From a bacterium (GTDB lineage: Bacteria; Patescibacteriota; Patescibacteriia; Patescibacteriales; GWE2-39-37), in the NCBI GenBank assembly GCA_021786695.1, contig JAJYMT010000069.1:1-28392 (forward strand): 28,392 nucleotides of DNA. Direction: 5' to 3'. The stretch's first letter is position 1. Each line of letters starts with the position of its first letter. The position numbers were made by a program, and so were the translations under genes. The notes beneath the pieces are model-generated. The model made no database searches, had not been told where the DNA came from, and saw nothing but the letters and a program-made list of their open reading frames with translations. Positions 4,460 through 11,412 of the stretch are shown here, piece by piece.

Positions 4460-4490
4460 AGTAATAAAATTAATTTATCGAAATGATTTA

Positions 4491-5120
4491 TTATCTGGAA
4501 TAGAACTCGACGATCATCTGCGCGTTGATGTTCGCCGCCAAATCCTTGGCGCCCGGGGCGTGCAAGACCTTGCCGGACAAATCGGCCGGAACGAGGTTGA
4601 GCCAGCTCGGCAAATTGACTTTTTTGAGCGCCTCGCCCAGATTGTTGAAAATTTTCTTGCGTTTAGAGCCGTCCTTGATCTTGATGACGTCGCCGGTCTT
4701 TACCTGGTAGGAAGGGATCGAAACCTTGCGGCCGTTGACGGCGATGTGGCCGTGGCTGACCAGCTGGCGCGCCGTATCGCGGGAGGAGGCCAAACCGAGC
4801 TTGTAAACGGTGTTATCCAGGCGGGTTTCAAGCAATGACAAAAAATTCTCGCCCAGATTGCCGATCATCTTCTGTGCGCGCAGGAAAGTCAGCCGGAATT
4901 GCTTCTCAAGCATCCGGTATTCCTTCATTGCTTTCTGTTTTTCCTGCAGCTGCAGGCCGTACTCGGTCTGCCTGGTCCTGCCCTTGCCGCCGTGGATGCC
5001 GGGCGGAAAATTTCTTTTGGTGATGGCGCATTTCACGCTGAAACAGCGTTCACCCTTGAGGAACAGTTTTTCGCCGACCCGGCGACATTGCTTGCATTTT
5101 GGATCCAGATTTCGTGCCAT
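4491..5120 (-). CDS. rpsD: 30S ribosomal protein S4 (zinc-binding C+ type)
   Basis: '[24 protein letters not shown]...KC', '[13 protein letters not shown]', '[14 protein letters not shown]'. Confidence 0.99.
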
Positions 5121-6890: not shown

Positions 6891-8789
6891 TTATTCCAGC
6901 ACCGCCTTAATCCTGCGTACGCCGGCGGAAGAACTCTCTTCTTTCACTATCCTGAATCTGCCTAATTCGTTGGTATTTTCCACATGCGGGCCGCCGCAAA
7001 TTTCCTTGCTGAAAAGCCGTCCGTCTTTCTCGATGGTGTAAACCTTCACTTTTTCGCCGTATTTCGATTCGAACACGCCTTCTGCGCCAGCCTGTTTCGC
7101 CGCCTCCAAAGTCATCTCCTCGCAAAGAACCGCCGCTTCCGCCCCGATCGCCTCGTTGACTGATCGTTCGATCAGCGCCAGTTGGTCGGCAGTCATTTTT
7201 TCCGTATGGGAAAAATCGAAGCGCAGCCGCTCGGCCGTGATGTTACTTCCCTTCTGATGGACATGATCGCCGAGCACTTGCCGCAAGGCCGCGAGCATCA
7301 GGTGCGAGGCGGTGTGGAGTTTCTTGGTCGCCTCGCCCGCGTCGGCCAGGCCGCCTTTGAATTTACCGGCTGAGGCGGTGCGGGAAAGTTCCTGGTGTTT
7401 TTGAAGTTCCTCGCTGAATTCGTTTTTAATACGATCGAAATCAACACCAGTTTTAAACTCTATGCCCCTTGTTTTTAGTTCTTCAAGAGACATTTCCAGA
7501 GGAAAGCCATACGTTTGGTAAATATCAAATAACCATTTTCCTGTCGCGAGACCAAGGCCTTTGTATCCACCGATTGCTCCATCACTTTTAATTTCTCCCT
7601 GCAAAATTCTTAGTCCTTTTTCAAGCGTCAGCTTAAATCTATTTTCTTCCGTTTGTAATTCCTTAATGATTTTATCATTGCCTCTATCTAATTCCGTATA
7701 AATATGAGCATACATTTTTATTGTTATTGCGGCGATTTCCGTAGTCCAGTTTTCTTTTTTAATTCCCAACTGCTTGCCATAACGTACCGCGCGGCGGATC
7801 AGCCGGCGCACCACATAGCCCTGGTCGGTGTTCGATGGGCTGACGCCCCGATCGTCGCCGATGATGAAGGTGGCGGCCTTGAGGTGGTCCGCGACGATCC
7901 GCATGGCGCGGCTCGTCTCCTCCGACTCGCCATATGCTTTGCCGGACAATTCTTTCAACTTATCGAAAATCGGGCTGAACAGTTCGGTATCAAAAGCGTT
8001 CTGCTTGCCGGTGAGCACGGTCAGCGTCCGTTCAAGGCCCATGCCGGTATCGACATTCTGCCGCGGCATCTTCTCGAACTTGCCGTCCGCGGTCTTGTTG
8101 AACTCCATAAAAACATCGTTCCAGATCTCCATGATCCGGAAGCCGTCCACCTCTTCCTCGAAGGTGCCGGTGAGCGGTCCGCGCTCCGGCGCTACGTCAT
8201 AAAACATCTCGGTGCAGGGACCGCAGGGGCCGGTAGCTCCGGCCGGCCCCCACCAGTTGTCTTTAGCCGGCAGCGGGAAGATGCGGATATTCTCACTGCC
8301 GCTGATTTTTTCTCCTGGTCCTGAAACTTTTGCCTCGATGCCGGCGGCCTTGAAACATTTTTTCCATTCATCGATCGACTCCTGGTCGATCGGACTTGAA
8401 TCGTTGCCCATAAAAACCGTCGCGTAGAGGCGGCGCGGGTCGAGCGCCAGCCAGTCATGGCCGGTCAAGAATTCCCAGGACCAGGCGATCGCCTCCTTTT
8501 TGAAATAATCGCCCAGAGACCAGTTGCCGAGCATCTCGAAAAAAGTCAGATGGCGGTTGTCGCCCACCTCGTCGATGTCGCCGGTACGGATGCATTTCTG
8601 GCAATTGGCCAGCCGCGCGCCTTCGGGATGCGGTTCGCCCATGATATACGGCACCAGCGGATGCATGCCGGCAGTGGTGAAGAGCACCGTCGGATCGTTT
8701 TCCGGAATCAAAGAAGAACTGGGCAGTATGGCGTGCCCCTTTGATTTGAAAAAATCCAGATATTTTTGTCTAAGTTCACCGCCTGTCAT
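6891..8789 (-). CDS. alaS: Alanine--tRNA ligase, short form without the C-Ala domain
   Basis: 'LFTTAGMHPL', 'HLTFFEMLGN', 'VDTGMGLERT', editing motifs 'HTASH' and 'CGGPH'; start taken at MTGGELRQKY (8789). Confidence 0.98.
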   Translation of the reverse strand: MTGGELRQKYLDFFKSKGHAILPSSSLIPENDPTVLFTTAGMHPLVPYIMGEPHPEGARLANCQKCIRTGDIDEVGDNRHLTFFEMLGNWSLGDYFKKEAIAWSWEFLTGHDWLALDPRRLYATVFMGNDSSPIDQESIDEWKKCFKAAGIEAKVSGPGEKISGSENIRIFPLPAKDNWWGPAGATGPCGPCTEMFYDVAPERGPLTGTFEEEVDGFRIMEIWNDVFMEFNKTADGKFEKMPRQNVDTGMGLERTLTVLTGKQNAFDTELFSPIFDKLKELSGKAYGESEETSRAMRIVADHLKAATFIIGDDRGVSPSNTDQGYVVRRLIRRAVRYGKQLGIKKENWTTEIAAITIKMYAHIYTELDRGNDKIIKELQTEENRFKLTLEKGLRILQGEIKSDGAIGGYKGLGLATGKWLFDIYQTYGFPLEMSLEELKTRGIEFKTGVDFDRIKNEFSEELQKHQELSRTASAGKFKGGLADAGEATKKLHTASHLMLAALRQVLGDHVHQKGSNITAERLRFDFSHTEKMTADQLALIERSVNEAIGAEAAVLCEEMTLEAAKQAGAEGVFESKYGEKVKVYTIEKDGRLFSKEICGGPHVENTNELGRFRIVKEESSSAGVRRIKAVLE

Positions 8790-8830
8790 TGTAATTTGAA
8801 ATAGTTTGTGTGAATTCTCAAATTTTCGAT

Positions 8831-8872
8831 TCTCGACACCCGACCTCGATGCATCGAGGTCGGGTGTCGAGA
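8831..8872. repeat. Perfect 42-bp palindrome in the alaS leader
   Basis: TCTCGACACCCGACCTCGATG|CATCGAGGTCGGGTGTCGAGA with no spacer. Confidence 0.95.
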
Positions 8873-8903
8873 GCCCAAATATCAAAGTAAATCATATTGG
8901 AAA

Positions 8904-8932
8904 ATTATAAATTATTTAAGCGATTTTGGCAA
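8904..8932 (-). promoter_or_regulatory. alaS promoter TTGCCA-N17-TATAAT
   Basis: -35 at 8927-8932, -10 at 8904-8909. Confidence 0.8.
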
Positions 8933-8945
8933 CCTCCAAGAAATG

Positions 8946-8974
8946 AAAAACCCCGCCACACTGGTGCGGCGGGG
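8946..8974 (-). terminator. Intrinsic terminator ending the 9640-8946 unit
   Basis: Minus-strand RNA CCCCGCCGCAC-CA-GUGUGGCGGGG-UUUUU. Confidence 0.85.
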
Positions 8975-9035
8975 TGTCCTGTTGTTTCGCGCGGTTCTTC
9001 GCGATCAGGCGGTCAGGGCATCCGCCGATTCTGTT

Positions 9036-9089
9036 TCATTGCGTCTTGTTCTCCCGCGCTCCGGCGGAGTACTTTAGCCGTTGCACCAT
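9036..9089 (-). CDS. Candidate micro-ORF, 17 aa (MVQRLKYSAGARENKTQ)
   Basis: AAGGAGG at 9094-9100 spaced 4 nt from the ATG; too short to assess further. Confidence 0.3.
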   Translation of the reverse strand: MVQRLKYSAGARENKTQ

Positions 9090-9155
9090 CGTCCCTCCTT
9101 TCGGTGCGATGATCGCCGGCACGGCCGTTGCCGGCCGACGCGCCGCTCGGCAGCT

Positions 9156-9281
9156 TCAGGTCCGCTCGTGCCCCCGTCCCTGGGACTTCTTCCGCCCGTC
9201 GATCTCGACCTTCTTCATCTCGACCTTCTCCGTCCGCCGGGTGTAGGTGTGCGACCTGCACGGTCGACCTCTCGAGGTCAT
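9156..9281 (-). CDS. Candidate small basic protein, 41 aa (MTSRGRPCRSHTYTRRTEKVEMKKVEIDGRKKSQGRGHERT)
   Basis: GGAGAAGGGGG upstream of the ATG; codons mostly end in G or C like the GC-rich genes here; not in the ORF track. Confidence 0.45.
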   Translation of the reverse strand: MTSRGRPCRSHTYTRRTEKVEMKKVEIDGRKKSQGRGHERT

Positions 9282-9284
9282 GGC

Positions 9285-9640
9285 GCCCCCTTCTCCCGTC
9301 ATCTCGATGACGAGTGCCAGTCAGCGGTTTCGGACCGTCGGGTCCGTCGTACCCCGGGCTTCTGTCGAAGCCGGGAAGTCAAAACGCTACAGCGCCGGAA
9401 TGTGGGATGGTCGCCCCTGTTATCCGGCAAGGATGCGGAGCCGTAGCCCCTAAGATCCCCAAAAGGGCCTTCTTGGTCCGGAGACAGCCGGGTCTGTTTA
9501 CTTCATTCCCCGTTAACCGAAGTGGGTCAACATCATCTGCATAGGCACGTGTCCTTTCCCTGAAGGGTTTGGTCTCGGGTTGACCGAAAGTGCGCTTGAG
9601 AGCATCCCGTATTATTTGCCCCCGGTTGCGGGAAGATGTC
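9285..9640 (-). ncRNA. Candidate structured RNA or long structured leader (no known family recognised)
   Basis: About 350 nt without a credible ORF downstream of an extended -10 promoter; dense hairpins (UUCCCG-CAAC-CGGGGG, GGUC..GACC, GUUGACC..GGUUAAC with AC-UUCG-GU, CCCGGCUUC-GACA-GAAGCCCGGG, GGACC-CGAC-GGUCC, CGUCAUC..GAUGACG). Confidence 0.45.
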
Positions 9641-9643
9641 TAT

Positions 9644-9652
9644 AGTATAGCA
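9644..9652 (-). promoter_or_regulatory. Extended -10 promoter TGcTATACT
   Basis: Read directly on the minus strand; no good -35 hexamer. Confidence 0.6.
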
Positions 9653-9690
9653 TATTACGCCGGAATTTCCAGCCGGTACGGCCCGGCAGA

Positions 9691-9846
9691 TCAGCGGGGC
9701 AACGACTCGATGGCGGCCGGCTTTGGCAGCGTCTTTCTGATGCCGCATTCGAGTCCGAAGCAGATGGCGCCGCCCACGATAAAAATGAGTATGCCATAGG
9801 TGACGTATTTCGCGATCGGATGCTTCTCCTTCTCTTCCCTATTCAA
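9691..9846 (-). CDS. Small single-pass membrane protein, 51 aa (absent from the ORF track)
   Basis: TTG start overlapping the upstream TGA, AAGGAGG at 9852-9858; MNREEKEKHPIAKYVTYGILIFIVGGAICFGLECGIRKTLPKPAAIESLPR*. Confidence 0.75.
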   Translation of the reverse strand: MNREEKEKHPIAKYVTYGILIFIVGGAICFGLECGIRKTLPKPAAIESLPR

Positions 9847-10301
9847 TGCCGCCTCCTTGATCTCCGCTCGTATTTTCTCCAGACGTTTGCGAGCAGCTCG
9901 TTGTGATCGTACTTTTCCACGAACTGCCGAAATTTCTGGAGGAACTCCGTCGGCCAGGGCTCGCGCCGGTCCCAGCCGTCAATATGCGCAAATCGCACCG
10001 TCTCGACGCGGCCGAACGGATCGTAATCGACAGCGATCCTGATAGACCAGTAGCCGAAGGCGCCGGCCGGCAAAAACCGGATCGTGGGATAGTGGATGGT
10101 GAATTGTTTCTGTTTGTTCGCCCAGTCGATGAACCGGTTGAGCAGCAGTTCGAGCATCAGGTTGAAATATTCGTCGGAAAATTCGATCCGCTTCCTTTTG
10201 CGGCTGAAAAATTCCTTCAGATCGGCGACCGTGTACTCGGCGGCCGGCTGGCTTGCCACCGACAAGCGCTCGCAACTTTGCGCTGATTTCTCTGATTTCA
10301 A
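9843..10301 (-). CDS. Hypothetical soluble protein (152 aa)
   Basis: TTG start with AAGGAGG at 10310-10316, directly after the mnmA stop; no family recognised. Confidence 0.75.
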   Translation of the reverse strand: MKSEKSAQSCERLSVASQPAAEYTVADLKEFFSRKRKRIEFSDEYFNLMLELLLNRFIDWANKQKQFTIHYPTIRFLPAGAFGYWSIRIAVDYDPFGRVETVRFAHIDGWDRREPWPTEFLQKFRQFVEKYDHNELLANVWRKYERRSRRRH

Positions 10302-10320: not shown

Positions 10321-11412
10321 TTATTTTAACTGCTTGTCGATTATTCCTCCGCCTAAGACCTCATTTCCTTTATAGAATACCACGCTCTGGCCTGCGGTGA
10401 CCGCCCGCTGCGGTTTAGTGAATTTCACCGACAGTCCGCCGGACGGATTTTTCTTTATATCACAAGTGACCGCCGGATGTCTATACCGGATCACCGCCTG
10501 CGCCCGCAGGGGCAGTTTCGGCTCGCCGTTGATCCAGTTCACCTCGCGCGCGACAAGGTCTTTCCGGAAAAGCGCCTTGTCCTCTTTTTCGGAAACCACG
10601 AACAGGGTGTTGGTTTCAAAATCGCATTTCGCCACATAGAACGGCCCGATGCCCCCGATCTCCACGCCTTTTCTTTGGCCGATAGTATAGAGCGGCAATC
10701 CCTGGTGTTTCCCGATTACGCGCCCGTCCATGGTCTTGATCTCGCCCGGGATTAATTTCAGATGCCGTTTCAGAAATTCGTTATGGGTGCGCTCCGGAAT
10801 GAAGCAGATCTCCTGGCTTTCCGGTTTTTCGGCCACCCCTAAACCGGCCTTTCCGGCGATTTCCCTTACCTGCGTTTTCGTAAGGTCGGAGAGCGGAAAG
10901 AGGATTTTTTTCAGATTGTCCTGGTTCAGATTGTACAAAAAATAGGTCTGATCCTTGGCCTTGTCCTTGGGCCGCGTCAATTTGATGGAATCGCCTTGCC
11001 GTTTCATTCCGGCATAATGGCCGGTGGCGATGAAATCGGCGCGCAAGCCGTTGGCCTTCTCGATCAATAGATCGAACTTGATGTATTTGTTGCAATTGAC
11101 GCAAGGATTCGGCGTCTCACCCGCGCCGTAGCCGGCGATGAATTCGTCCACCACCAATTTCTTGAACGGCAGATCGAAGTTGACCGTATAGATCGGGAAG
11201 CCGAGATGCTGCGCCACCCGCCGCGCGTCATTGAATGAGGCGACCGAACAGCATTTATTGGTCACTTCCGATTCGCCCGAAAGCGTCTCGGCCCAAAAAT
11301 GCATGAAGATGCCGAGCACCTCATAGCCCTGTTTTTGGAGTAGATAGGCCGCGACCGAGGAGTCCACCCCGCCCGACATCGCGACGATTACTTTTGGTTT
11401 TTTGACCGCCAT
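10321..11412 (-). CDS. mnmA: tRNA 2-thiouridine synthase MnmA
   Basis: 'AMSGGVDSSVAA', 'TPNPCVNCNKYIKF', 'ATGHYA', 'KDQTYFL', 'ESQEICF', 'GQRKG', 'QRAVTAGQSVVFY'. Confidence 0.98.
   Translation of the reverse strand: MAVKKPKVIVAMSGGVDSSVAAYLLQKQGYEVLGIFMHFWAETLSGESEVTNKCCSVASFNDARRVAQHLGFPIYTVNFDLPFKKLVVDEFIAGYGAGETPNPCVNCNKYIKFDLLIEKANGLRADFIATGHYAGMKRQGDSIKLTRPKDKAKDQTYFLYNLNQDNLKKILFPLSDLTKTQVREIAGKAGLGVAEKPESQEICFIPERTHNEFLKRHLKLIPGEIKTMDGRVIGKHQGLPLYTIGQRKGVEIGGIGPFYVAKCDFETNTLFVVSEKEDKALFRKDLVAREVNWINGEPKLPLRAQAVIRYRHPAVTCDIKKNPSGGLSVKFTKPQRAVTAGQSVVFYKGNEVLGGGIIDKQLK

What the first reader, a model, noticed from the sequence alone, without database searches (positions are those of the whole stretch)
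8946..9652. Self-contained 690-nt transcription unit: hairpin-dense RNA with two micro-ORFs
Seen: extended -10 promoter, about 350 nt with no credible ORF, then 41-aa and 17-aa ORFs, then a strong terminator. Hairpins continue through the whole unit, several with canonical tetraloops (AC-UUCG-GU, GGCCG-GCAA-CGGCC, CC-GAAA-GG, GACCU/AGGUC). It does not match my recollection of RNase P, tmRNA, SRP, 6S or group II intron consensus. Inference: an undescribed large structured ncRNA, or a regulated small-protein mRNA such as a type I toxin-like locus.
Basis: partly seen in the sequence, partly recalled or inferred. Interest (0 to 1): 0.72.

Follow-up and report, generated by a model that had tools for sequence, protein, structure and literature searches.

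The report
Small-protein mRNA with conserved leader
The 690-base stretch upstream of the alanyl-tRNA synthetase gene of this tiny-genome (CPR/Patescibacteria) bacterium looks like a self-contained, fast-evolving transcript. It encodes a very basic 41-residue protein behind a long leader holding strongly conserved non-coding blocks, and it is not one big folded RNA; what it does is unknown.

Summary
The unit is real and lies on the minus strand. It has an extended -10 promoter-like site (9671-9644), about 355 nt without a credible ORF, a 41-aa ORF (9281-9156), a 17-aa ORF (9089-9036) and a strong terminator (8975-8950). It sits directly before alaS, which has its own promoter.

Hairpin density is not above chance (MFE z -1.55), and nothing matches Rfam. 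RNase P RNA and tmRNA are encoded elsewhere in the genome.

Relatives exist only in a narrow clade (AlaRS 72-76% identical), always upstream of alaS. The locus is a mosaic:
- One lineage shares only the promoter, the first 45-50 nt of the transcript, one hairpin module and the terminator.
- Three others share the interior.

The 41-aa ORF is a conserved small basic protein (MTSRG.P...GRKSRKSQ). Four lineages keep its start and SD, and all indels are multiples of 3.

A hairpin just 5' of its SD covaries: 6 of 8 pairs change on both sides. A 145-nt leader block and the spacer after the ORF are 81-87% identical, while four-fold sites of alaS and mnmA are only 35-48% identical. Their fold is unproven.

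Best reading: a small-protein mRNA with cis-acting leader RNA. It is not a 690-nt structured ncRNA and not a type I toxin. No transcript data were available. Similar mini-ORF units were noted elsewhere in this scan, on unrelated DNA.

The parts
9644..9671 (-). Promoter-like site: -35 TGGAAA, 16-nt spacer, extended -10 TG-c-TATACT. The presumed transcript start is about 9637.
   Evidence: Found by the scan. The extended -10 (TGCTAWAYT) and the following bases are conserved in L026 (TTGCGA-17-TGCTATATT) and recognisable in L106 (TTGCAT...TGCTAATAT). Transcription itself is not shown.
9594..9640 (-). 5' end of the transcript, holding a small hairpin. Two alternative foldings are possible: UUCCCG-CAAC-CGGGGG, or GGGGGC...GCUCUC.
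   Evidence: Together with the -10, this stretch is 85-86% identical over 59-62 nt to L026/L105 (E 1e-14 against the pair of regions). AlaRS is 76% identical in protein and alaS four-fold sites are 42% identical. The two substitutions inside the stems are compatible with pairing (read from the sequence).
9513..9569 (-). Hairpin module (CCC-UUCA-GGG flanked by A-rich arms) followed by a 9-codon ORF (ATG 9542 to TAA 9513).
   Evidence: 74% identical to L026:3709-3761 and alignable to L106/C. In the four-way alignment this ORF looks like the product of a ~150-nt deletion joining two ORFs of L106/C. Its apparent SD is the 3' arm of the conserved hairpin, so translation is doubtful.
9372..9516 (-). 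Block 1: a non-coding leader block under strong purifying selection.
   Evidence: 81% column identity to L106, gaps included, with 27-35-nt stretches that differ at one base; also kept in lineage C (L132/L133). Indels of 1-2 nt and a stop in L106 rule out coding. Four-fold sites of alaS and mnmA are only 48% and 35% identical. In the consensus fold of 39 pairs most pairs never vary and only 1 shows a change on both sides. Alifold z is -1.7 on the sense strand and -2.1 on the antisense strand, so the structure is unproven.
9315..9371 (-). Variable spacer. It holds hairpin GGACC-CGAC-GGUCC (9345-9332) and a conserved single-stranded motif AAC..C...A.UGG (9331-9314).
   Evidence: L106 and C carry about 90 extra nt here. 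The hairpin is kept with other loops in L106 and C, and a second copy stands at L106:2912-2936. The motif is recognisable in all four lineages (alignment).
9295..9314 (-). Covarying hairpin (CUCGUCAU-CGAG-AUGACGGG) that ends at the SD region of the 41-aa ORF.
   Evidence: All four lineages form a hairpin here with different sequences. 96.9% of cells are paired against 76% in shuffles (0 of 500 reach it). 6 of 8 pairs change on both sides. Slid controls give 28-52%.
9156..9281 (-). ORF2: a 41-aa very basic small protein (MTSRGRP...GRKKSQGRGHERT), with SD GGGAGAAGGGGG at 9297-9286.
   Evidence: Homologues are L106:3899-4048 (49 aa), P0123 (43 aa, L132/L133) and P0122 (44 aa, L131). They were found by an exhaustive profile search (E 1.6e-8 and 1.2e-7 over 1.84 billion proteins). 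All indels are 3, 6, 6, 12 or 15 nt. The N-terminal MTSRG.P is kept through synonymous codons. pI is 10-12 and GRAVY -1.2 to -1.8. pN/pS of 0.6-1.0 does not separate this frame from shifted frames. No Pfam or NCBIfam family matches.
9104..9155 (-). Spacer 2: a conserved non-coding stretch with hairpin CGGCCG-GCAA-CGGCCG (9137-9122) and mini-hairpin GCGA-UCA-UCGC (9116-9106).
   Evidence: 87% identical to L106 and conserved in C. L131 has a different hairpin sequence at the same place. Of 16 consensus pairs, 2 change on both sides and 3 are broken in L131. The mini-hairpin is kept in all four lineages (GCGA/GCGG...UCGC).
9036..9102 (-). SD GAAAGGAGGG (9102-9093) and ORF3, 17 codons (ATG 9089 to TGA 9036).
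   Evidence: The SD is identical in all four lineages. In L106, C and L131 the ORF is 11 codons from TTG, reading (M)SG[QW][LH]P[PR][KT][FVI]L[VA]. The 17 codons here are unrelated because of out-of-frame indels. Translation of a short ORF seems to be conserved, but the peptide is not.
8945..9035 (-). 3' untranslated part with two small hairpins, then the intrinsic terminator (stem 8975-8950, U-run 8949-8945).
   Evidence: z -3.2. The terminator stem is identical in L026. Terminators stand at the same place in L107, L131 and C, each followed by the alaS promoter.
8904..8932 (-). Adjacent and not part of the unit: the alaS promoter TTGCCA-17-TATAAT.
   Evidence: 11 of 12 consensus positions. 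Conserved in L026, L107, L131 and C.

Best explanation
This is an independently transcribed, lineage-restricted mRNA of about 690 nt for small proteins, with cis-acting RNA elements.

Its layout, 5' to 3':
- A sigma-70-type promoter with an extended -10.
- A leader of about 355 nt. Its first 45 nt and a 145-nt internal block are under strong purifying selection.
- A stable hairpin that covaries between lineages and ends at the SD of a 41-residue, very basic, hydrophilic protein (ORF2).
- A second conserved 'hairpin, SD, short ORF' module.
- An intrinsic terminator, about 15 nt before the alaS promoter.

Shown here: the anatomy, the conservation pattern, the in-frame evolution of ORF2, and the covariation of the pre-SD hairpin.

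Inferred: the leader sets how much ORF2 protein is made. Block 1 would be a sensor or a protein-binding site, possibly for the basic ORF2 product itself, as in ribosomal-protein leaders. The pre-SD hairpin would stabilise the mRNA or gate ribosome access. The 3' SD plus mini-ORF would load ribosomes to stabilise or couple the 3' part.

The locus evolves by large indels and module swaps.
For: - Promoter and terminator. Their conservation in relatives.
- ORF2 family. Four lineages keep the same start and SD. Five of five indels are multiples of 3, whereas the adjacent non-coding block has indels of 1-2 nt. MTSRG.P is kept by synonymous codons.
- Pre-SD hairpin: 6 of 8 pairs with changes on both sides, 96.9% paired against 76% in shuffles (0 of 500 reach it) and 28-52% when slid.
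- Block 1 is 81% and spacer 2 is 87% identical between G000 and L106. Four-fold degenerate sites are 48% (alaS) and 35% (mnmA) identical, and alaS nucleotide identity is 72%.
- The SD of ORF3 is identical in four lineages, and an 11-codon ORF is kept in three.
- The unit lies upstream of alaS, in the same orientation, in every lineage found.
Against: - No transcript evidence. The only RNA runs of the study hold nothing of this organism.
- pN/pS of ORF2 is 0.6-1.0, no better than in shifted frames. Part of the ORF (GGGCGGAAG...AAGUCC) is invariant at the nucleotide level, so RNA-level constraint could explain some of its conservation.
- Block 1 has too little variation to prove a fold. Its alifold z-score is no better than that of the reverse strand.
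- The lineage of L026 (AlaRS closer to L106 than to G000) lacks block 1 and ORF2 altogether, so they are dispensable.
- Only four to five lineages are known, and three of them come from one sample.
Confidence: 0.6

Rival explanations
1. Dual-function RNA. The transcript encodes the small protein, and block 1 and/or the conserved 5' end also act in trans as a base-pairing or protein-sequestering RNA.
For: Block 1 and the 5' 45 nt are conserved in presumed loops and single strands as well as in stems. This fits recognition of sequence rather than shape alone. The 5' end and the terminator are kept even in L026, where the interior is replaced. That is the usual pattern of sRNAs with a 5' seed (my own knowledge; review PMC12612679 listed).
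Against: No target was found. Complementarity to tRNAs was uninformative (tRNA-Ala ranks 9th of 31), and pairing to the alaS leader was not computed because the script timed out. There is no paralogue and no second site in the genome. Block 1 is missing in L026's genome.
Confidence: 0.15
2. A single large structured non-coding RNA of about 690 nt, in which the ORFs are incidental.
For: Several hairpins are kept between lineages. Nucleotide-level conservation inside ORF2 and pN/pS near 1 are compatible with RNA-level selection.
Against: Whole-unit folding gives z -1.55. Length and content differ strongly between close lineages: about 490 nt, about 700 nt and about 1.8 kb. Indels are strictly in frame inside ORF2 but not outside it. 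SDs are conserved at proper spacing before start codons. No Rfam family matches.
Confidence: 0.1
3. An upstream leader or attenuator of alaS. Transcription from the upstream promoter reads into alaS when the terminator is bypassed, controlled by translation of the last mini-ORF or by tRNA-Ala or AlaRS binding.
For: Linkage and orientation with alaS hold in all lineages. A short SD-led ORF precedes the terminator. In L131 its stop codon lies 8 nt before the terminator stem. Upstream CGGCGG could pair with CCGCCG of the terminator's 5' arm (read from the sequence).
Against: A near-consensus promoter (TTGCCA-17-TATAAT), conserved in all lineages, separates the terminator from alaS. The mini-ORF is not rich in Ala codons: 2 of 17, 1 of 11, 1 of 11 and 0 of 11. 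Its distance to the terminator varies from 8 to about 300 nt. In L106 a GIY-YIG gene lies between the unit and alaS. No T-box match in Rfam.
Confidence: 0.08
4. Decaying remnants of former genes or neutral junk, or a type I toxin-antitoxin locus.
For: There is a rapid turnover of content. A 27-nt match of 9157-9130 to the enolase VPSGASTG region of other CPR genomes appeared (inspected).
Against: 81-87% identity where neutral sites are saturated excludes neutrality. An intact enolase is elsewhere in the genome, and the match is about what chance gives over 316 genomes (my estimate). No ORF product is hydrophobic. All three promoter-like sites in 8500-10100 are on the minus strand, so no antisense promoter was seen. 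The antisense 121-aa ORF is not kept in frame in L106 and finds no protein relatives.
Confidence: 0.04

Closest known systems
Bacterial small-protein mRNAs and dual-function RNAs (for example S. aureus RNAIII/hld, E. coli SgrS/SgrT, B. subtilis SR1/SR1P; review PMC12612679, seen; the examples are from my own knowledge)
   Same: A short stand-alone promoter-to-terminator transcript. It has a long structured untranslated part, one or more SD-led ORFs under 50 codons, a conserved 5' end and a conserved terminator.
   Different: No sequence or family relation. No base-pairing target is known. The ORF2 protein family (MTSRG.P...GRKSRKSQ) is in no library. The unit is confined to a few uncultured CPR lineages.
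Autoregulatory leaders of ribosomal-protein operons (for example the L20, S15 and L10 leaders; my own knowledge)
   Same: A highly conserved structured leader stands in front of a gene for a small, very basic protein likely to bind nucleic acid. The locus lies among translation genes (mnmA, alaS, infA, rpsM, rpsK).
   Different: ORF2 matches no ribosomal-protein family (Pfam and NCBIfam at E<=10). Binding was not tested. No Rfam leader family matches.
5' stem-loop and SD mRNA stabilisers of Firmicute-type decay systems (aprE leader, cry3A STAB-SD; my own knowledge)
   Same: A stable hairpin directly upstream of a strong SD, and an SD plus mini-ORF with no conserved product. Both are arrangements that protect mRNA from 5'-end-dependent decay.
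   Different: The hairpin is internal, about 325 nt from the presumed 5' end, unless the RNA is processed. The decay machinery of this organism was not examined.
Leader-peptide attenuators of aminoacyl-tRNA synthetase operons (E. coli pheM-pheST) and T-box leaders
   Same: A short translated ORF and a terminator upstream of a synthetase gene.
   Different: No enrichment of cognate codons. A conserved promoter stands between the terminator and alaS. No T-box motif (see the membership test).

Membership tests
Any Rfam 15 family (including RNase P, tmRNA, SRP, 6S, T-box, group I/II introns, OLE, GOLLD, HEARO, ROOL, raiA) | Covariance-model score at or above the family's gathering score | tested here: not met
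   No match in the window at gathering score. Only chance-level miRNA/sRNA hits at E<=10 in 8700-9900, none inside block 1. Nothing in the homologous loci L106, L026 or L107.
RNase P RNA / tmRNA | Being the genome's copy of that RNA | tested here: not met
   An RNase P RNA-like match lies at C65:16376-16674 (56.6 bits, E 4e-17). tmRNA lies at C70:1141-1520 (134 bits).
Type I toxin-antitoxin | Small hydrophobic, membrane-active peptide | tested here: not met
   ORF2 homologues have GRAVY -1.2 to -1.8 and pI 10-12. ORF3 of this window has GRAVY -1.2, and its 11-codon counterparts are about neutral (-0.01 to +0.43) but too short to span a membrane.
Type I toxin-antitoxin | Antisense or overlapping sRNA with its own promoter | tested here: inconclusive
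   The consensus scan finds no plus-strand promoter-like site in 8500-10100. No RNA data are available.
Protein-coding small gene (ORF2) | Reading frame, start and SD kept across lineages; indels in multiples of three | tested here: met
   Four lineages were compared. Indels are 3, 6, 6, 12 and 15 nt. ATG and SD are conserved, and the stop lies in the same region.
Protein-coding small gene (ORF2) | Excess of synonymous over non-synonymous change (dN/dS well below 1) | tested here: inconclusive
   pN/pS is 0.6-1.0 in frame, similar to shifted frames. Only the N-terminal MTSRG.P shows a clear synonymous pattern.
Structured cis-regulatory RNA (riboswitch- or leader-like) | Base pairs supported by compensatory changes | tested here: inconclusive
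   Met for the pre-SD hairpin (6 of 8 pairs). Weak for the spacer-2 hairpin (2 of 16). Block 1 is almost invariant (1 of 39), with alifold z -1.7 against -2.1 for the reverse strand.
Leader-peptide attenuation of alaS | Leader ORF enriched in the cognate (Ala) codons | tested here: not met
   Ala is 2 of 17 codons (G000), 1 of 11 (L106), 1 of 11 (C) and 0 of 11 (L131).
Leader-peptide attenuation of alaS | No independent promoter between the attenuator and the regulated gene | tested here: not met
   TTGCCA-17-TATAAT at 8932-8904 matches 11 of 12 positions and is conserved in L026, L107, L131 and C.
Dual-function sRNA | A trans-acting base-pairing domain with defined targets | not testable with these tools
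   Only a crude duplex scan against tRNAs was possible, and it was uninformative.

The most novel reading that the evidence does not exclude
Block 1, together with the covarying pre-SD hairpin, would be an undescribed cis-regulatory RNA that controls a new family of small, very basic proteins. It would act either as a ligand-sensing riboswitch or as an autoregulatory binding site for the ORF2 protein. This module would be functionally tied to alaS or tRNA-Ala metabolism in a clade of ultra-small bacteria, which would explain why it always sits directly upstream of alaS.
Probability: 0.25. Interest if true: 0.6.

Novelty: new member of a known kind. Interest (0 to 1): 0.4.

Why it matters
CPR/Patescibacteria genomes are about 1 Mb and tightly packed, so 0.7-1.8 kb kept for tiny ORFs and non-coding sequence next to an essential translation gene suggests a real function.

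The locus offers:
- An uncatalogued small-protein family.
- A non-coding block more conserved than the neighbouring alaS coding sequence.
- A clear case of modular, fast turnover of a small-ORF transcript.

If the leader proves to be a sensor or an autoregulatory site, it would add a regulatory RNA class in a phylum where almost none is known. If not, it is one more lineage-specific small-protein mRNA.

Tried and rejected
1. Rfam at gathering score and at E<=10, on the window and on the homologous loci: nothing.

2. Divergent RNase P, tmRNA, SRP or 6S RNA. RNase P RNA and tmRNA are elsewhere. SRP and 6S models hit nothing in the genome, and nothing in the unit at E<=10. The unit is too large and too variable for any of these.

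3. Alternative genetic code. The nearest MAG is labelled 'Ca. Gracilibacteria'. With TGA read as sense, minus frame 0 would be open for about 240 codons. I rejected this for four reasons:
   - There is no start codon or SD.
   - The terminator would lie inside the ORF.
   - Block 1 has 1-2-nt indels against L106.
   - alaS (632 codons) and mnmA are intact under table 11.

4. Antisense 121-aa ORF (9081-9446, plus strand). No Pfam hit, no relatives among 5.8 billion proteins, and the frame is not kept in L106.

5. Enolase pseudogene. A 27-nt match to VPSGASTG-coding DNA appeared. An intact enolase lies on C24, and the match is at chance level.

6. Homology of ORF2 and ORF3 to the Cys-rich 48-60-aa ORF and the HC..GC micro-ORF that genus g4 carries between mnmA and alaS: not significant (E 4.5).

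7. DGR template or repeat. The own genome holds no second copy.

8. tRNA-Ala complementarity (T-box-like). tRNA-Ala ranks 9th of 31, and the method is uninformative. The first attempt timed out.

9. Transcription evidence. Two DNA runs hold the locus with no other letters in the unit, and the RNA runs of the study hold nothing of the organism.

10. More homologues:
    - 40 relatives: nothing.
    - 316 genomes of the order: nothing.
    - 60 relatives of the L026 MAG: nothing beyond the L026 MAG's own known 5'-end match.
    - 80 metagenome alaS loci: nothing beyond L025/L026, the same 5'-end match.
    - L136 and L137 are 100% identical to L106.

11. ESM Atlas for ORF2: no usable hit.
Full report
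**Where and what**

The window comes from an 0.84-Mb, 83%-complete assembly of a Patescibacteria/CPR-type bacterium. The unit lies on the minus strand.
- Upstream are mnmA (10321-11412), a 152-aa ORF and a 51-aa membrane ORF that ends at 9691.
- Downstream is alaS.
- alaS most likely starts at ATG 8789, not at the TTG 8885 of the mechanical ORF list. Homologues align only from residue 25-33, and L026 and L131 start with the same MTG..LRQ.YLDFF.

**Checking the observation**

The consensus scan finds TGGAAA-16-TG-c-TATACT at 9671-9644 and an 11-bp terminator at 8975-8950. It also finds a second, near-consensus promoter (TTGCCA-17-TATAAT, 8932-8904) in front of alaS.

Between about 9637 and 9281 there is no credible ORF. 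A 41-aa ORF (9281-9156) and a 17-aa ORF (9089-9036) follow, each behind an SD.

The claim of exceptional hairpin density does not hold:
- The unit folds at -278.5 kcal/mol against -267.1 +/- 7.4 for dinucleotide shuffles (z -1.55). The opposite strand gives z -0.48.
- Apart from the terminator region (z -3.2), sub-segments give z from -0.3 to -1.8.
- Of the named tetraloop hairpins, CC-GAAA-GG is the SD of the 17-aa ORF. GACCU/AGGUC lies in the first codons of the 41-aa ORF and is not kept in relatives.

**Known RNAs**

Rfam 15 gives nothing at gathering score and only chance-level hits at E<=10. It gives nothing in the homologous loci either. The genome's RNase P RNA-like match and its tmRNA are on other contigs.

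**Finding relatives**

BLAST of the unit found nothing in 40 relatives and nothing in 316 genomes of the order. Among 60 relatives of the nearest MAG it found only that MAG's own 5'-end match. I therefore went through the neighbour gene.

The closest AlaRS proteins anywhere are 72-76% identical, and each brings a contig with a related unit upstream of alaS:
1. L025/L026/L105, a MAG labelled Ca. Gracilibacteria. It shares the -10 and the first ~45 nt of the transcript (85-86% over 59-62 nt), a hairpin module (74%), the terminator stem (identical) and the alaS promoter. Its ~300-nt interior is unrelated. Its whole genome lacks the interior of our unit.
2. L106 (identical to L136 and L137, seen in three samples). 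L106:3585-4112 aligns to window 9516-9093 at 65% over 533 columns (E 1e-43).
3. Two further lineages came from an exhaustive profile search with the ORF2 pair. P0123 (43 aa; L132/L133, called lineage C here) and P0122 (44 aa; L131) had E 1.2e-7 and 1.6e-8 over 1.84 billion proteins.
4. L107 shows only the terminator and the alaS promoter.

More distant family members (genus g4) carry other content in the mnmA-alaS gap: a Cys-rich 48-60-aa ORF, a 16-18-aa ORF ending in HC..GC, and a terminator. There is no significant similarity to ours.

**ORF2 is a gene**

The four homologues align as follows:
- G000: MTSRGRPCRSHTYTRRTEKVEMKKVEIDGRKKSQGRGHERT
- L106: MASRGHPVQSHTHTLCMEKPAAQEAEGNFKKNGRKSRKSLVEGQAHERT
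- C: MTSRGQPFSSQVHTTVEKKVEGNFKKDGRKSRKSQVEGCYARA
- L131: MTSRGRPVQSHTNLRRMKGLMAQKIDGDGRKSRKSQDEGRFARA

Evidence for coding:
- Start codon and SD are conserved.
- All indels are 3, 6, 6, 12 or 15 nt, whereas the non-coding block upstream has indels of 1 and 2 nt.
- The N-terminal residues are kept through different synonymous codons: Thr ACC/ACT/ACA, Ser TCG/TCA, Arg AGA/CGA/AGG, Gly GGT/GGA, Pro CCG/CCC.

The reservation: overall pN/pS is 0.6-1.0 and no better than in shifted frames, and part of the ORF is invariant at the nucleotide level. So the protein is weakly constrained, or the RNA is constrained as well.

The product is hydrophilic and very basic (pI 10-12, GRAVY -1.2 to -1.8). It matches no Pfam or NCBIfam family and no Atlas cluster. 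The genome holds no paralogue.

**Non-coding constraint**

Between G000 and L106, four-fold degenerate sites are 48% identical in alaS and 35% in mnmA. That is close to saturation. alaS as a whole is 72% identical in nucleotides.

Against this background:
- Block 1 (9516-9372) is 81% identical including gaps, with long runs that differ at one base.
- Spacer 2 (9160-9093) is 87% identical.

Both are therefore under strong purifying selection. Block 1 cannot be coding: it has stops and indels that are not multiples of 3.

Its consensus fold is a closing helix with four hairpins. That fold is compatible with all but a few substitutions, mostly through G-U wobbles, but only 1 of 39 pairs has a change on both sides. 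The alifold z-score (-1.7) is no better than that of the reverse complement (-2.1). Structure in block 1 is thus plausible but unproven.

**A proven RNA element**

Immediately 5' of the ORF2 SD, all four lineages form a hairpin from different sequences:
- G000: CUCGUCAU / AUGACGGG
- L106: CCC.CCGCG / CGCGG.GGG
- C: CCUGC.GCU / AGC.GCAGG
- L131: CGCGACC / GGUCGCG

On the MAFFT alignment, 6 of 8 pairs change on both sides. 96.9% of cells pair, against 76% in shuffles (0 of 500 reach it) and 28-52% when the partner is slid.

Two weaker cases follow the same theme:
- The spacer-2 hairpin (CGGCCG-GCAA-CGGCCG) is identical in three lineages and replaced by GUCGC-CAG-GCGAC in L131.
- A mini-hairpin (GCGA-NCA-UCGC) precedes the invariant SD GAAAGGAGG of ORF3 in all four.

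**The other ORFs**

ORF3 is an 11-codon TTG ORF in L106, C and L131, reading SG[QW][LH]P[PR][KT][FVI]L[VA]. Here it is a 17-codon ATG ORF with an unrelated peptide. So a ribosome-loading site is conserved rather than a product.

The 9-codon ORF at 9542-9513 looks like a by-product of a ~150-nt deletion. Its 'SD' is the 3' arm of a hairpin kept in L106, C and L026.

L106 carries further SD-led small ORFs upstream, including two paralogous 40-45-aa ORFs (54% identical, E 7e-6). Its unit is about 1.8 kb.

**Interpretation**

The data fit a stand-alone mRNA for small proteins with cis-acting leader elements. It evolves quickly by deletions, insertions and module replacement, and it is always parked just upstream of alaS.

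The mechanistic steps are inferences: block 1 as a sensor or protein-binding site, the pre-SD hairpin as a stabiliser or gate, and the 3' SD plus mini-ORF as a ribosome-loading or stabilising element.

Why the alternatives rank lower:
- An alaS attenuator is unlikely. A conserved strong promoter separates the terminator from alaS. The mini-ORF is not Ala-rich. Its distance to the terminator varies from 8 to about 300 nt. A GIY-YIG gene intervenes in L106.
- A type I toxin is excluded by peptide chemistry.
- Neutral decay is excluded by the conservation.
- A single 690-nt structured RNA is contradicted by the mosaic content, the ordinary folding energy and the in-frame evolution of ORF2.

**What is missing**

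No RNA data cover this organism. Two DNA runs hold the locus, with no other letters in the unit.

Only four to five lineages are known, and three come from one sample.

The scan's notebook lists comparable 'mini-ORF RNA' units upstream of rpsO and aspS in other CPR genomes. They are on unrelated DNA, and I did not test them.

Noticed in passing
window 8789-8897 (minus), especially 8826-8878: The alaS 5' UTR (about 108 nt from its own promoter) holds a perfect 20-bp palindromic hairpin. Contigs of both DNA runs show a 1-nt deletion or a G insertion at its centre (8852). Relatives carry different long palindromes of the 'GTCATTCC...GGAATGAC' type at the same place (L131:455-515, L107:257-340, L106 near 4470-4520 and 4915-4985). 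alaS itself has no SD. The mechanical ORF start (TTG 8885) is probably wrong, and ATG 8789 fits the homologues.
   Followed up: partly
whole genome G000 and family genomes G001-G006: The Rfam small SRP RNA model (RF00169) finds nothing at E<=1 in any of the 7 genomes of the family, four of which are 94-96% complete. The large SRP model (RF01854) and the 6S model (RF00013) also find nothing in G000. The family's SRP RNA may be too divergent for the models. I did not check whether ffh is present.
   Followed up: partly
G000:C65:16376-16674: The genome's RNase P RNA candidate scores only 56.6 bits against RF00010, whose gathering score is 100, over 299 nt. It looks like a reduced or divergent RNase P RNA.
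   Followed up: no
L021:1910-2407, L022:3685-4164, L014:1862-2161 (genus g4, mnmA-alaS gap): A different small-ORF cassette occupies the same slot. It has a Cys/His-rich 48-60-aa ORF (..C.C..Y....ELIHHTC.V.GPTHNGG) behind AAGGAGG. A 16-18-aa ORF ending in HC[KS][EN]GC and a terminator follow. It could be a metal-binding or peptide-precursor pair.
   Followed up: partly
L106:2769-3141 and L106:4590-4925: L106 carries two paralogous 40-45-aa ORFs (DG[IF]L.S..AE.WP...G...PR...AK..RR.RA.APG). They are 54% identical, differ by a 6-nt indel and show several synonymous differences. A GIY-YIG nuclease gene, looking like a homing endonuclease, is inserted between the unit's terminator and alaS.
   Followed up: partly
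window 9691-9846 and 9843-10301 (minus): A 51-aa single-pass membrane ORF overlaps the stop of the 152-aa ORF by 4 nt (TTGA). It has a homologue in L026 (767-970), where a 709-aa polytopic membrane protein gene is inserted between it and the unit. Neither ORF has a significant Pfam family; the best hit is DUF7550 at E 0.05 for the 51-aa ORF.
   Followed up: no
window 9157-9130: The spacer after ORF2 matches the enolase VPSGASTG-coding DNA of several other CPR genomes (24-27 nt, 88-92% identical). I judged this to be chance, and an intact enolase lies on C24.
   Followed up: yes
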